A stretch of 35,108 nucleotides of DNA, taken from the IMG/VR virus record IMGVR_UViG_3300020060_000009; one strand, given 5' to 3'. The notes below the pieces were generated by a model, which saw only the letters and a program-made list of their open reading frames with translations, was not told the DNA's origin and did no database searches. The stretch's first letter is position 1; the number at the start of each line of letters is the position of its first letter. A program made the translations under genes and the position numbers. Shown here piece after piece: positions 30,201 to 33,008 of this stretch. The DNA is from a virus (taxonomy: Duplodnaviria; Heunggongvirae; Uroviricota; Caudoviricetes).

Positions 30201-30404
30201 TCACTGAGTATTTCTTTTAGTCGTTTCATCTGGTTTTTCCTTTATAGACTTAATAATTTCACTAGCAATTTGCATTCCATTATAAGAACCAAACCTGAAC
30301 CATTTGACTTTACTCTCATCTTGTACATCAATGTCGAGCTTTTTAACATCAACCATCTTTAACATTTCTAATAATTCATTTTTTTCTGTCTTAGTTAACT
30401 GCAT
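30201..30404 (-). CDS. Hypothetical protein (start reassigned to MQLTK)
   Basis: GAAGGAA SD upstream of ATG 30404. Confidence 0.6.
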   Translation of the reverse strand: MQLTKTEKNELLEMLKMVDVKKLDIDVQDESKVKWFRFGSYNGMQIASEIIKSIKEKPDETTKRNTQ

Positions 30405-30428
30405 TTTTAGTTCCTTCAATATGTTATA

Positions 30429-30457
30429 AGTATAAGCTATTTCTAAGAGTTTAGCAA
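30429..30457 (-). promoter_or_regulatory. Sigma70 promoter TTGCTA-N17-TATACT
   Basis: Near-consensus hexamers with 17-bp spacer, just after a terminator. Confidence 0.65.
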
Positions 30458-30461
30458 GGGT

Positions 30462-30489
30462 AAATAAAAAACACCCCGCTAAAGGTGTC
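30462..30489 (-). terminator. Intrinsic terminator of ncRNA candidate
   Basis: GACACC-loop-GGTGTT then TTTTATTT. Confidence 0.6.
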
Positions 30490-30780
30490 TTCTACTTTTC
30501 GAAGGATGGTCATCCCTCTTGAACGCGGTTGTGGGTTGGGATTCTGTTTCCAGAACTTTACCAACATGCGGACGCCCTGACTAGTTTCGAAGTAAATCTT
30601 TGCTAGGTTTTGGTAATGCGTCCGTTTAACTCCATAGGAACCTTGCCCTGCTGGTGTAACCCAGAGGTTTTCAGTTCATTGCCAACGGGCTCTTGGTTAC
30701 TTCCCGATGTGCGCTACTATTTCTAGCCTATTAGGTGCTTTAGCCGTCAGGATGCTTATTAAGCTACCACAAACGCTCAT
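30465..30780 (-). ncRNA. Candidate ~310-nt structured ncRNA with pseudoknot
   Basis: Own promoter and terminator, longest ATG ORF seen is 27 codons. Closing helix 30767-30778/30521-30534, GNRA hairpin, and crossing stems. Confidence 0.6.
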
Positions 30781-30786
30781 ATATTT

Positions 30787-30815
30787 ATGATATCACACCC
30801 TGTTCAACCTGTCTA
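30787..30815 (-). promoter_or_regulatory. Sigma70 promoter TAGACA-N17-TATCAT with TGn extension
   Basis: Hexamers and 17-bp spacing read directly. Confidence 0.65.
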
Positions 30816-30841
30816 TGATTTAATGATGTAGAATAATCTAC

Positions 30842-30929
30842 AAGGAAAGAGACACCAATTAAGGTGTCTCCTAAGAAAGGCTCGTCTAGTGATTCTCCTG
30901 CGTATTTGCGACGCATTCTACCACTACGC
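30842..30929 (-). ncRNA. Candidate ~88-nt trans-acting sRNA (hairpin - AGCCUUUCUUA seed - terminator)
   Basis: Begins at the expected +1 of promoter 30935-30963 and ends at GAGACACC/GGTGTCTC + TTTCCTT terminator. Seed is complementary to four leaders. Confidence 0.6.
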
Positions 30930-30934
30930 TTTTA

Positions 30935-30963
30935 ATTATGCTCTTTTTATTGTTAAAACACAA
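30935..30963 (-). promoter_or_regulatory. Early-type promoter TTGTGT-N17-CATAAT
   Basis: Exact motif and spacing; overlaps the ninG stop. Confidence 0.8.
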
Positions 30964-31492
30964 CCCCTTTATATAAATCTATAACCTCCCGTATATCTGC
31001 TTGACTGACCTTCTTGCCAGATCGAGCGAATTGTTTAAGCTTATCTATTTCTAAGTCTCCATAATCTCTTCTTAATAATACTTCGTATACTATTAAGTTA
31101 CCATGCTTGTCTACATTGCATTCATTACACTGCGGATGACAATTTATTTCATCCCATCTGGTCTTTAAGAATCGACGAGACATAAAATGTCCACATTGGA
31201 GTTCATCTATTGGGAATTTTCTGCCACAAGTATAACAATGATTATCGGAACCATCACTATCTCTTTGCCTAATATATAGCGAGAAGTATTTATCTGCCCA
31301 GCCTATTAGCTGGCTACGTTCAGAACTGCCCTTGTAAGCTAATCTAAGCTCGTCTGAGGGCTTCTGACGCAAAAGTGGCACATTTGTACGTTTCTGTATA
31401 AAACCGTCAGGGAGAGCCTGTTTTTCGCGTTTTGGACATTTGTTCTTGCTGTGCCAAATTGAGCTACACCATTTACATGGCTTTGGGCTCAT
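30953..31492 (-). CDS. ninG: NinG/Rap-like recombination endonuclease
   Basis: FSLYIRQRD...CYTCG...QCGHFMSR...RWDEINCHPQCNECN...GN. Confidence 0.85.
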   Translation of the reverse strand: MSPKPCKWCSSIWHSKNKCPKREKQALPDGFIQKRTNVPLLRQKPSDELRLAYKGSSERSQLIGWADKYFSLYIRQRDSDGSDNHCYTCGRKFPIDELQCGHFMSRRFLKTRWDEINCHPQCNECNVDKHGNLIVYEVLLRRDYGDLEIDKLKQFARSGKKVSQADIREVIDLYKGVVF

Positions 31493-32609: not shown

Positions 32610-33008
32610 ATGTTTATATACAAGAGTGGTGGCGCATGGGTCAAGACAACTAAGAAGGAAATGCAGATTGTATCTCCGTCTACTCTTAAACGTAAACGCG
32701 ATGCGTTCGAGCGCAAAAAACTAACTCCTGGATTTAAAAGATGGCGAAGCTATCAGTATCGTAAGCAAGGAGGTAAATGCTTCTACTGTCTCCACCCAAT
32801 TGACGGTGCTTGGCATACCGATCATTTCATCCCACTTGGGAGATTTTACGGCACTTCCGCTTATAAAAATCTCCGAGTCTGCTGTAGCCATTGTAACTAT
32901 TATAAGTCTGTCCAATATCCAACAGCGAGGATACTCTTGGAACTTCGCTCTGGCATAGCTTGTAGGCAATATCACAGAGTCTCTAGAATCTCGGTTTTAA
33001 AGACATGA
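32610..33008 (+). CDS. HNH endonuclease, only convincing plus-strand gene
   Basis: CFYC...HTDHFIPL...NLRVCCSHCNYYK. Confidence 0.85.
   Translation: MFIYKSGGAWVKTTKKEMQIVSPSTLKRKRDAFERKKLTPGFKRWRSYQYRKQGGKCFYCLHPIDGAWHTDHFIPLGRFYGTSAYKNLRVCCSHCNYYKSVQYPTARILLELRSGIACRQYHRVSRISVLKT

What the first reader, a model, noticed from the sequence alone, without database searches (positions are those of the whole stretch)
30465..30815. Stand-alone ~310-nt structured non-coding RNA with a closing helix and H-type pseudoknot
Seen: own promoter (TAGACA-N17-TATCAT) and terminator, no meaningful ORF. The 5' end (30778-30767) pairs with 30534-30521. Other helices: 30700-30690/30666-30656 (10 of 11 bp); CGGACGC/GCGUCCG (30624-30618/30575-30569), crossed by UUACCAA/UUGGUAA (30616-30610/30564-30558) to give a pseudoknot; UUCUG-GAAA-CAGAA GNRA hairpin (30555-30542). 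It does not match tRNA, tmRNA, SRP, RNase P or group I cores as I recall them. Inference: an uncharacterised phage ncRNA class.
Basis: partly seen in the sequence, partly recalled or inferred. Interest (0 to 1): 0.72.

Follow-up and report, generated by a model that had tools for sequence, protein, structure and literature searches.

The report
New structured phage RNA gene
An uncultured 99-kb phage and 13 relatives carry a separate gene for a ~315-nt RNA that folds into an elaborate, evolutionarily maintained shape matching no catalogued RNA family; its job is still unknown.

Summary
The RNA gene is real. On the minus strand, about 30782-30466, it has its own sigma-70-type promoter and an intrinsic terminator, and it holds no conserved ORF. 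I found 13 homologues, 45-86% identical to one another, always downstream of a NinG gene in uncultured phages. Across the 14 copies a 70-pair structure is 91-95% paired, against 35-43% when partners are slid, and 47-49 pairs show compensatory changes.

The proposed H-type pseudoknot and the 30700/30666 helix are not conserved. The real pseudoknot is a 6-bp kissing pair between CCUGAC (30751-30746) and GUCAGG (30581-30576); it contains the strongest covarying column pair in the alignment. A further helix carries a motif like the 11-nt GAAA-tetraloop receptor.

All 4227 Rfam models, ARAGORN, and searches for Ro60 and reverse transcriptase gave nothing. Every copy is followed by a separate promoter for the next operon, so it is not a leader.

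Function is unknown. My best guess, held weakly, is a trans-acting scaffold or decoy that works through the near-invariant loop GAGUAACCAAGG. No expression data could be obtained. The scan had noted only the neighbouring small RNA before.

The parts
30787..30815 (-). Promoter: -35 TAGACA (30815-30810), 17-nt spacer, TG-extended -10 TATCAT (30792-30787). The transcription start is inferred at about 30782-30779.
   Evidence: One search gives 10 of 12 consensus matches with TG present. Homologues carry TTGACA or TAGACA plus TGnTAnnAT at the same distance from helix P1. The start site is inferred, not measured.
30466..30782 (-). The RNA gene, about 315 nt from the inferred start to the end of the terminator U-run.
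   Evidence: Covariance model R1 scores 301.9 bits over 30465-30785. There is one copy in the 99-kb genome. Thirteen homologues were found.
30521..30778 (-). P1 closing helix: GAGCG-UUGUGG (30778-30767) pairs with CCACAA-CGUUC (30534-30521).
   Evidence: 11 pairs, 7 with compensatory changes, 86-92% paired.
30737..30764 (-). P2/P2a hairpin: GCUU/AAGC and AGC/GCU, with the invariant internal loop AAUA and a 9-nt loop L2.
   Evidence: both helices are 100% paired in all 14 copies. Pair U-A switches to A-U in 6 sequences.
30746..30751 (-). 5' strand of the kissing pseudoknot, CCUGAC, inside loop L2.
   Evidence: Its central column, paired with the matching column of the 3' strand, scored highest of all column pairs in the alignment (GC 8, AU 4, CG 1, UA 1). 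The helix is 100% paired in 14 of 14, and 3 of 6 pairs are compensatory.
30576..30581 (-). 3' strand of the kissing pseudoknot, GUCAGG, lying directly 5' of the P6 3' strand.
30728..30735 (-). Px 5' strand, CCUAAUAG. With 30637-30632 it closes an inner four-way junction (P3, P4, P5). It resembles one half of the 11-nt GAAA-tetraloop receptor.
   Evidence: Px is 93-100% paired. The distant copy L021 keeps a helix here with different letters (CUC-UUA-UCC / GGA-U-GAG), and its own MFE fold predicts that helix. The canonical receptor is CCUAAG/UAUGG (10.1101/2024.03.11.584472).
30632..30637 (-). Px 3' strand, CUAUGG, which contains UAUGG, the other half of the receptor-like motif.
   Evidence: The sequence is identical in 12 of 14 copies.
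30716..30727 (-). P3 hairpin, GCUA-GAAA-UAGU.
   Evidence: The loop is GAAA in 12 of 14 copies and GUAA in one. The inner two stem pairs are compensatory.
30681..30712 (-). P4 hairpin with the 13-nt loop L4, AAGUAACCAAGAG (30702-30690; family consensus GAGUAACCAAGGA).
   Evidence: Six of 9 stem pairs are compensatory. The loop is nearly invariant even in L021. No complementary partner exists in the phage genome.
30638..30677 (-). P5, GAACU/GGUUC, with a variable inner hairpin P5a. In short versions it is capped by GAAA.
   Evidence: All 5 pairs are compensatory and 100% paired in the model-fitted alignment. The length variation is visible.
30569..30624 (-). P6, CGGACGC/GCGUCCG. It encloses a variable loop and an inner CUAG/CUAG hairpin (30606-30603 with 30584-30581).
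   Evidence: Six of 7 pairs are compensatory and 96% paired. CUAGU is invariant in all 14 copies. A 5' CUAG or ACUA partner was seen in every copy by eye.
30535..30565 (-). P7 (GUUGG/CCAAC) and P8 (UUCUG-GAAA-CAGAA), abutting the P1 3' strand.
   Evidence: P7 is 100% paired with 4 of 5 pairs compensatory. P8 is 94% paired in the fitted alignment with 4 of 5 compensatory. Loop L8 is GAAG in 10 copies and GAAA in 3.
30501..30518 (-). P9, a hairpin of variable sequence between P1 and the terminator.
   Evidence: Present in the single-sequence folds. It is not alignable across the family.
30466..30494 (-). Intrinsic terminator: a stem whose loop contains the conserved UUAGCG, followed by a U-run.
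   Evidence: All 7 pairs are compensatory. The loop UUAGCG is kept in 12 of 14 copies. It is the only hairpin of this kind in the genome.
30429..30457 (-). Separate promoter of the downstream operon, TTGCTA-N17-TATACT. It is not part of the RNA but shows the RNA is not a leader.
   Evidence: An equivalent CTTGYG-N17-TATAAT, CATAAT or TATACT follows the terminator in the homologues.

Best explanation
This is an independent gene for a ~315-nt structured non-coding RNA. It belongs to a family not in Rfam and has been seen so far only downstream of the NinG gene in a small clade of uncultured phages.

Shown here:
- It has its own sigma-70-type promoter and an intrinsic terminator.
- A closing helix P1 holds a five-way junction of P1, P2, Px, P6 and P7/P8.
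- Px in turn closes an inner four-way junction of P3, P4 and P5, and carries a motif like the 11-nt GAAA-tetraloop receptor.
- A 6-bp kissing pseudoknot ties loop L2 to the P6 loop next to the P6 stem.

Inferred:
- It is transcribed early by host RNA polymerase and acts in trans as a compact folded particle.
- Most likely (about 0.3-0.4, weak) it is a scaffold or decoy that binds a protein or RNA of the phage or host through the near-invariant exposed loop L4 (GAGUAACCAAGG). The tertiary contacts would serve only to hold that loop in place.

The confidence given here refers to the gene, the fold and the family being uncatalogued. It does not refer to the mode of action.
For: Conservation:
- 13 homologues were found through DNA motifs and NinG relatives.
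- Pairwise identity is 45-86%, median 63%, and no pair exceeds 90%.

Fold:
- On the MAFFT alignment, 90.9% of cells are paired against 35-43% when partners are slid.
- There, 47 of 70 pairs are compensatory and 0 of 500 shuffles reach any measure.
- On the model-fitted alignment the figures are 94.7% and 49 of 70.
- In an unbiased scan of all column pairs, 14 of the 20 best belong to this structure, and the best of all is the pseudoknot pair.
- The distant copy L021 folds into the same architecture on its own.

Strand and coding:
- In paired positions there are 80 G-U pairs against 22 A-C, so the fold belongs to the minus-strand transcript.
- No ORF is conserved.

Independent unit:
- The promoter and terminator are conserved.
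- A further promoter follows every terminator.

Uncatalogued:
- Rfam gives nothing and ARAGORN gives nothing.
- blastn finds nothing in 50,697 phage records.
- Model R1 finds only the 14 copies in 452 kb of fetched DNA.

Loop L4:
- It is nearly identical in L021, whose other joints differ.
Against: - Expression and the RNA's ends are therefore inferred.
- Nothing points to a partner for L4. There is no complementary site of 9 nt or more in the phage genome and no match in the phage's 26 tRNAs.
- L4 could instead be an internal tertiary contact.
- The family has only 14 known members from related phages, and no phylogeny-aware covariation test such as R-scape could be run.
- Px rests on compensatory change in a single lineage, L021.
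- One relative, L020, has a different RNA in the same slot, so this RNA is dispensable for the clade.
Confidence: 0.8

Rival explanations
1. It is a ribozyme. The ornate, pre-organised core (multi-way junctions, a kissing loop, a tetraloop-receptor-like contact, invariant joining nucleotides) would form an active site that cleaves, ligates or modifies itself or another RNA, for instance in this tRNA-rich phage that also carries RNA-repair genes.
For: The structural complexity and the many invariant unpaired nucleotides (99 columns at 13 of 14 or better) are typical of large ribozymes and riboswitches. The phage has 26 tRNAs.
Against: No known ribozyme family matches. No processing site is visible. 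No substrate is suggested by complementarity. Most bacterial RNAs of this size without a known function have shown no catalysis; that last point is from my own knowledge.
Confidence: 0.12
2. It is a cis-acting leader: a riboswitch, or a put-like antiterminator RNA, that decides whether polymerase reads through the terminator into the downstream operon.
For: The layout of promoter, large aptamer-like fold closed by P1, terminator and then genes is that of a transcriptional riboswitch. A five-way junction with a loop-loop kiss recalls the lysine riboswitch (from my own knowledge).
Against: Every one of the 14 copies has a separate promoter between the terminator and the next ORF. The next gene differs among copies: a 72-aa protein here, a T4_Y16D-family protein in most, and a 160-aa protein before the terminase in L021. 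L020 has the same downstream gene as the window but lacks this RNA. A variable hairpin and spacer separate P1 from the terminator, and I saw no conserved alternative pairing by eye. No riboswitch family matches.
Confidence: 0.08
3. It is an RNA that works as a homo-oligomeric assembly, like the phage-associated GOLLD and ROOL RNAs. The kissing pair, the GAAA loops with the receptor-like motif, or the palindromic CUAG elements would then act between molecules.
For: GOLLD, ROOL and OLE form RNA-only homo-oligomers (PMC12286853). GOLLD and ROOL occur in many phage genomes (PMC7567579). This RNA has several GAAA loops (L3, short P5 caps, some L8), one receptor-like motif and an invariant palindrome ACUAGU/CUAG. 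Covariation cannot tell intra- from intermolecular pairing.
Against: It is much smaller, about 315 nt against the ~800 nt quoted for a GOLLD-sized transcript. It does not match those Rfam models. It does not lie near the tRNA genes. Every contact can be satisfied within one molecule.
Confidence: 0.08
4. It is a diverged member or remnant of a known RNA class (group I intron, RNase P RNA, tmRNA, Y RNA or retron msr) that the models miss.
For: It shares a building block, the GAAA/11-nt-receptor-like motif, with group I and II introns and RNase P (my own knowledge, plus for the motif sequence).
Against: There is no Rfam hit even at E<=10 for the window or at E<=5 in 8 homologue loci. ARAGORN is negative. 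The genome has no Ro60/TROVE gene and no reverse transcriptase. No interrupted host gene flanks it; NinG ends upstream and the next ORF starts after its own promoter.
Confidence: 0.03
5. It is a DNA-level element (replication origin, packaging site) or a small protein gene, and the RNA fold is incidental.
For: It is a long stretch without a gene in an early region. The cumulative GC skew flattens around 29.4-30.7 kb.
Against: Compensatory changes keep RNA pairs, including many G-U pairs that would be A-C on the other strand (80 against 22). The promoter and terminator bracket it exactly. No direct-repeat pattern was seen by eye. ORF starts and lengths are not conserved.
Confidence: 0.02

Closest known systems
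GOLLD and ROOL large ornate RNAs (Rfam families; PMC12286853; PMC7567579)
   Same: They are stand-alone, elaborately folded non-coding RNAs found in phage genomes, and their function is unknown.
   Different: They are much larger (a GOLLD-sized transcript is quoted at ~800 nt; this RNA is ~315 nt) and usually lie near tRNA genes. They are shown to form homo-oligomers. This RNA matches neither model, sits after NinG, and has a different architecture.
The most abundant ICP1 (Vibrio phage) transcript, a ~800-nt non-coding RNA (PMC7567579)
   Same: It is a phage-encoded non-coding transcript from a stretch without ORFs, of unknown role.
   Different: blastn found no similarity in the phage collection that should hold ICP1. 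The size and genome position differ. ICP1's RNA is known from RNA-seq, whereas this one is known only from comparative analysis.
11-nt GAAA tetraloop receptor (CCUAAG/UAUGG) of group I and II introns and RNase P
   Same: Px carries CCUAA on one strand and UAUGG on the other. GAAA loops are conserved in the same RNA.
   Different: The closing G-U is replaced by U plus an A-U pair, giving CCUAAUA/UAUGG, which amounts to a one-nucleotide insertion. Docking is untested. This is a shared building block, not evidence of kinship.
Lysine riboswitch and other junction-plus-kissing-loop aptamers
   Same: They have a P1-closed multi-helix junction stabilised by a roughly 6-bp loop-loop interaction (from my own knowledge).
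   Different: There is no model match. The RNA has its own terminator and is followed by a separate promoter. It is about twice the size, and no ligand is suggested.
phi29 pRNA (Rfam Phage_pRNA)
   Same: It is a phage-encoded structured RNA that uses loop-loop pairing.
   Different: There is no match. pRNA belongs to phi29-like phages and acts on the packaging motor. Only in L021 does this RNA lie next to terminase genes.
Candidate structured RNAs of IMG/VR (Fremin, Bhatt and Kyrpides 2023, PMC10690425)
   Same: The data source is the same; three members of this family are IMG/VR records. The logic, covariation in intergenic regions, is also the same.
   Different: Those candidates are 29-151 nt and unnamed. 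Their lists were not available to me, so an overlap with part of this RNA could be neither shown nor excluded.

Membership tests
Any Rfam 15 family (4227 models, including group I/II introns, RNase P, tmRNA, SRP, 6S, GOLLD, ROOL, OLE, raiA, HEARO, pRNA, riboswitches) | A score at or above the family's gathering threshold. | tested here: not met
   There are 0 matches over the whole window. At E<=10 over 30300-31000 the only hit is a plant 5'UTR model on the opposite strand at 14.9 bits against a threshold of 54. Eight homologue loci give nothing at the RNA.
tRNA / tmRNA | A cloverleaf, or a tRNA-like domain plus a tag reading frame. | tested here: not met
   ARAGORN finds 0 genes in the window. 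The same program finds 26 tRNAs elsewhere in the genome.
Riboswitch / cis-regulatory leader | It lies in the 5' UTR of the regulated gene with no promoter in between, and the regulated gene family is conserved. | tested here: not met
   A promoter follows the terminator in all 14 copies. The downstream genes differ.
Riboswitch / cis-regulatory leader | Alternative pairing between the aptamer's closing helix and the terminator. | tested here: inconclusive
   Inspection of the alignment showed none. I made no systematic search.
Y RNA (Ro60-associated) | A Ro60/TROVE protein gene in the same genome. | tested here: not met
   PF05731 gives no match in the 99-kb genome, while the controls responded.
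Retron msr-msd / DGR template / other RT-associated RNA | A reverse transcriptase gene in the genome. | tested here: not met
   PF00078 gives no match at E<=0.01, while the controls responded.
Group I intron | Insertion in a host gene with flanking exons, plus a conserved P3-P8/P7 core. | tested here: not met
   The flanks are a complete NinG ORF and a promoter-led next ORF. There is no Intron_gpI hit.
11-nt GAAA tetraloop receptor (a motif, not a family) | CCUAAG opposite UAUGG within a helix, and a GAAA loop in the same RNA. | tested here: inconclusive
   CCUAA and UAUGG are present in 11-12 of 14 copies, but the closing position differs (CCUAAUA). L3 is GAAA in 12 of 14. Docking cannot be tested with these tools.
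Stand-alone bacterial or phage ncRNA gene (generic) | Own promoter and terminator, no conserved ORF, and structure maintained by compensatory change. | tested here: met
Stand-alone bacterial or phage ncRNA gene (generic) | A discrete transcript detected. | not testable with these tools

The most novel reading that the evidence does not exclude
The RNA founds a new functional class. It could be a phage-encoded ribozyme. It could instead be a folded decoy whose invariant loop imitates a piece of the translation apparatus, soaking up a host defence factor or redirecting a host enzyme. That loop has an AGUA...GAC outline with an ACCA/GCCA tip, which recalls bulged-G (sarcin-ricin-type) modules and the NCCA end of tRNA; this resemblance is from memory only.
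Probability: 0.15. Interest if true: 0.85.

Novelty: categorically new. Interest (0 to 1): 0.62.

Why it matters
Structured RNAs of this size and complexity are rare in bacteria and phages. The features that mark it out are two nested multi-way junctions, a covariation-proven kissing pseudoknot, a receptor-like motif and dozens of invariant unpaired bases. Earlier RNAs of this kind turned out to be ribozymes, riboswitches, RNP cores or, recently, self-assembling RNA cages.

This one sits in a phage 'RNA slot' behind NinG, next to a second small RNA. One relative has a different RNA in the same slot, which suggests that phages trade RNA genes as accessory modules, much as they trade protein morons.

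The report provides a defined alignment, a covariance model and a base-pair map with named mutations to test. That makes the RNA ready for chemical probing, cryo-EM and pull-down experiments.

The limits are plain. There are only 14 copies, all from uncultured phages, with no expression data and no functional clue. As it stands this is a well-founded new orphan RNA class rather than a new mechanism.

Tried and rejected
Searches that found nothing:
- Rfam at gathering score and at permissive E-values, for the window and for 8 homologue loci.
- ARAGORN.
- blastn 'distant' against 50,697 phage records.

DNA-pattern scans:
- Four patterns in IMG/VR returned only the two known relatives plus two chance hits, L022 and L023.
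- The metagenome scan gave one true member, L011, and one chance hit in a coding region, L012.
- The scan of 185,579 species genomes gave 38 hits. All were chance by nhmmer and by model R1.
- More distant NinG-bearing viral contigs L004-L008 lack the RNA.

- The H-type pseudoknot was rejected.
- The 30700/30666 helix was rejected.

My own ideas that failed:
- L4 pairing with P7, with the P6 loop or with the P5 3' strand is incompatible with the proven helices, or is not kept in L013 and L014 (by eye).
- Antisense targets of the conserved single strands in the phage genome turned up only the gene's own opposite strand.
- L4 against the D-loops of the 26 phage tRNAs gave nothing.
- Duplex prediction between the upstream small RNA and this RNA gave long, meaningless duplexes and was dropped.
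- Ro60 and reverse transcriptase as partners are absent.
- The terminator loop UUAGCG pairing with GCUAA of P2 shows no covariation (by eye).

Untested resemblances:
- L4 looks like 16S rRNA GUAACAAGG and like the sarcin-ricin loop. Both are recalled from memory, were not tested, and carry no weight in the verdict.

Not available:
- The supplementary lists of PMC10690425, which are not held.
Full report
**Where it is.** The window is part of a 99,006-bp IMG/VR phage record with direct terminal repeats. The finding lies in a gap between ORFs on the minus strand. Upstream is a NinG/Rap-family gene, 30953-31492 (Pfam PF05766). Downstream is a 72-aa ORF, 30201-30419. An earlier agent described a separate small RNA at 30842-30929 (e1-5427778). 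The element studied here begins after that RNA's terminator.

- The promoter scan gives TAGACA-N17-TATCAT with a TG extension at 30815-30787, minus strand. It matches 10 of 12 consensus positions and is the best site in the 1.8 kb scanned.
- The 326-nt transcript folds at -97.5 kcal/mol with a z-score of -3.8, and none of 100 shuffles does as well. The fold ends in a hairpin plus U-run at 30494-30466.
- G+C is 0.45-0.485, against 0.30-0.37 in the flanks.
- The ORFs inside are short.

**Relatives.**
- blastn against cultured phage genomes found nothing.
- The NinG protein led to two IMG/VR contigs. Their DNA downstream of NinG aligns with the element at nhmmer E-values of 1e-77 and 1e-44.
- A two-motif DNA pattern found one more contig in metagenomes, L011. 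It also hit L012, a chance match inside a coding region.
- NinG homologues of 50-68% identity, looked up on their contigs, gave ten more copies.
- That makes 14 copies in all. Over the core, pairwise identity is 45-86% with a median of 63%, and no pair exceeds 90%.
- L021 is the outlier. Its NinG is 50% identical, the RNA lies just upstream of the terminase genes, and the phage shares only a few genes with this one.
- Further pattern scans of IMG/VR added no member.
- A scan of one genome for each of 185,579 prokaryote species gave 38 hits. All failed both the nhmmer profile and the covariance model.
- The RNA is single-copy in its genome.
- It is absent from the more distant NinG-bearing viral contigs.
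- One relative, L020, whose NinG is 57% identical, keeps the upstream small RNA but has a different ~199-nt promoter-terminator unit in this slot.

**Structure.** RNAalifold on three sequences, and then on fourteen, gave a consistent set of helices with many compensatory changes. I added helix P4, helix Px and a pseudoknot by inspection and from a scan of all column pairs. In window coordinates, minus strand, the model is:
- P1: 30778-30767 with 30534-30521.
- P2/P2a hairpin: 30764-30737.
- Px: 30735-30728 with 30637-30632. It encloses the next three hairpins.
- P3: 30727-30716, with a GAAA loop.
- P4: 30712-30681, with the 13-nt loop L4.
- P5: 30677-30638, variable in length.
- P6: 30624-30618 with 30575-30569, with an inner CUAG/CUAG hairpin.
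- P7: 30565-30561 with 30539-30535.
- P8: 30555-30542.
- A variable hairpin P9, then the terminator.

P1 therefore closes a five-way junction, and Px closes an inner four-way junction.

**Statistics.**
- On the plain MAFFT alignment, the 70 pairs are standard pairs in 90.9% of cells.
- When the 3' partners are slid by 1-3 columns, only 35-43% of cells pair.
- 47 pairs show a change on both sides, and none of 500 shuffles reaches any of the five measures.
- I built a covariance model and refitted the 14 sequences to it. The figures then rise to 94.7% and 49 pairs. That alignment leans towards the model, so one search is the fairer number.
- In the unbiased scan of all column pairs, 14 of the 20 top scores belong to the model.
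- Paired positions hold 80 G-U pairs against 22 A-C, so the fold belongs to the minus-strand transcript and not to the DNA or the opposite strand.
- The distant L021 sequence, folded alone, gives P1, P2, Px, P5, P6 with its inner hairpin, P7 and P8.

**The pseudoknot.**
- Its UUGG is the 5' strand of P7, which is 100% paired with four compensatory pairs.
- The highest-scoring column pair in the whole alignment links the middle of loop L2 to the P6 loop: G-C in 8 copies, A-U in 4, C-G in 1, U-A in 1.
- It sits at the centre of a 6-bp helix, CCUGAC (30751-30746) with GUCAGG (30581-30576).
- That helix is paired in 14 of 14 copies with three compensatory pairs.
- It abuts the P6 3' strand and overlaps the inner CUAG hairpin by one or two nucleotides, so the three helices probably stack.

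**The receptor-like motif.**
- Px reads CCUAAUAG opposite CUAUGG. The classic 11-nt GAAA-tetraloop receptor is CCUAAG opposite UAUGG, and insertion variants can still bind (10.1101/2024.03.11.584472).
- Here the closing G-U is replaced by an extra U and an A-U pair.
- GAAA caps P3 in 12 of 14 copies and caps P5 in the short versions. L8 is GAAA in 3 copies and GAAG in 10.
- L021 has neither the receptor letters nor a GNRA loop on P3, yet it keeps a helix at Px.
- This fits a tetraloop-receptor contact, but it rests on one lineage and on motif resemblance only.

**What stays unexplained in the fold.**
- Loop L4 (consensus GAGUAACCAAGGA) is almost invariant, even in L021.
- The joints UA, AGUUNAA, NAU and UAAAG are conserved.
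- The palindrome CUAGU is invariant.
- The terminator loop UUAGCG is kept in 12 of 14 copies while its stem covaries, and it is the only such hairpin in the genome.
- L4 has no complementary site of 9 nt or more in the phage genome or in its 26 tRNAs.

**What it is not.**
- It matches no Rfam family at any useful threshold.
- It is not a tRNA or tmRNA.
- It is not coding: start codons and ORF lengths are not conserved.
- The genome has no Ro60 gene and no reverse transcriptase, which removes Y-RNA and retron-type readings.
- It is not a leader. A promoter of the type CTTGYG-N17-TATAAT, CATAAT or TATACT lies between the terminator and the next ORF in every copy. The next gene also differs among copies.
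- A DNA-level role such as an origin does not explain strand-specific compensatory pairing.

**How it probably works.**
- Shown: an independently bracketed gene and a compact fold held by a closing helix, two nested junctions and a kissing pseudoknot.
- Inferred: early transcription by host polymerase and action in trans.
- My preferred mode, at about 0.3-0.4, is a scaffold or decoy that presents L4 to a protein or RNA partner.
- A ribozyme (0.12), a cis regulator (0.08) and a self-assembling RNA like ROOL or GOLLD (0.08; PMC12286853) remain open.
- No transcript data could be had.

**Comparison and novelty.**
- The nearest things in kind are the orphan phage RNAs GOLLD, ROOL and the abundant ICP1 non-coding RNA (PMC7567579). 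This RNA shares neither sequence nor architecture with them.
- It shares a building block with group I and II introns and RNase P, and a general layout with junction-plus-kissing-loop riboswitches. It fails every membership test I could run.
- A survey of IMG/VR listed thousands of unnamed 29-151-nt candidates (PMC10690425). I could not check whether a fragment of this RNA is among them.
- I rate it a new RNA family of unknown function: solid as an object, open as a mechanism.

Noticed in passing
L020:2962-3160 (+): A relative whose NinG is 57% identical keeps the upstream small RNA. In the slot of the 315-nt RNA it has a different ~199-nt unit with its own promoter and terminator. That unit matches neither model R1, nor Rfam, nor any other fetched DNA. 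The NinG-downstream slot seems to exchange RNA genes.
   Followed up: partly
L021:3540-3740 (+): A second unit driven by the same ATAGACAGCC...TGTATAAT promoter type lies just upstream of the L021 copy of the RNA. The gene caller made it a 76-aa ORF, but it may be another non-coding RNA. No relatives were found among the fetched loci.
   Followed up: partly
window 30466-30494 (-): The terminator's loop sequence UUAGCG is conserved in 12 of 14 homologues although the stem letters change. It is the only TTAGCG-loop hairpin with a T-run in the 99-kb genome. UAGCG also recurs at the P3/P4 joint in 9 of 14 copies. It could be a protein-binding or processing signal.
   Followed up: partly
window 30429-30457 (-), and after each homologue's terminator: A recurring promoter type, CTTGYG-N17-TATAAT, CATAAT or TATACT, heads the upstream small RNA and each following small operon; L020 shows four copies within 900 bp. 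The 315-nt RNA instead uses TAGACA or TTGACA with a TG-extended -10. The two promoter classes may differ in timing.
   Followed up: no
window 30842-30929 (-): The neighbouring small RNA noted earlier (e1-5427778) is present upstream of the 315-nt RNA in the close relatives, and also in L020, which lacks the 315-nt RNA. The two RNAs are therefore separable modules.
   Followed up: partly
window 32610-33008 (+): An HNH-type ORF on the opposite strand is about 60% identical to the HNH gene of the otherwise distant L021 phage. That is much closer than their terminases, which are 32% identical, and hints at a mobile homing-endonuclease gene.
   Followed up: no
G000:C1:2884-15957 (outside the window): ARAGORN finds 26 tRNA genes in the phage genome. 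They lie far from this RNA, unlike the usual tRNA-adjacent position of GOLLD and ROOL.
   Followed up: no
window 30471-30488: The terminator scan listed this hairpin only for the plus strand, with a poor T-tail, and not for the minus strand, where the U-run is. The minus-strand terminator assignment rests on the folds and on covariation, not on that scan.
   Followed up: yes
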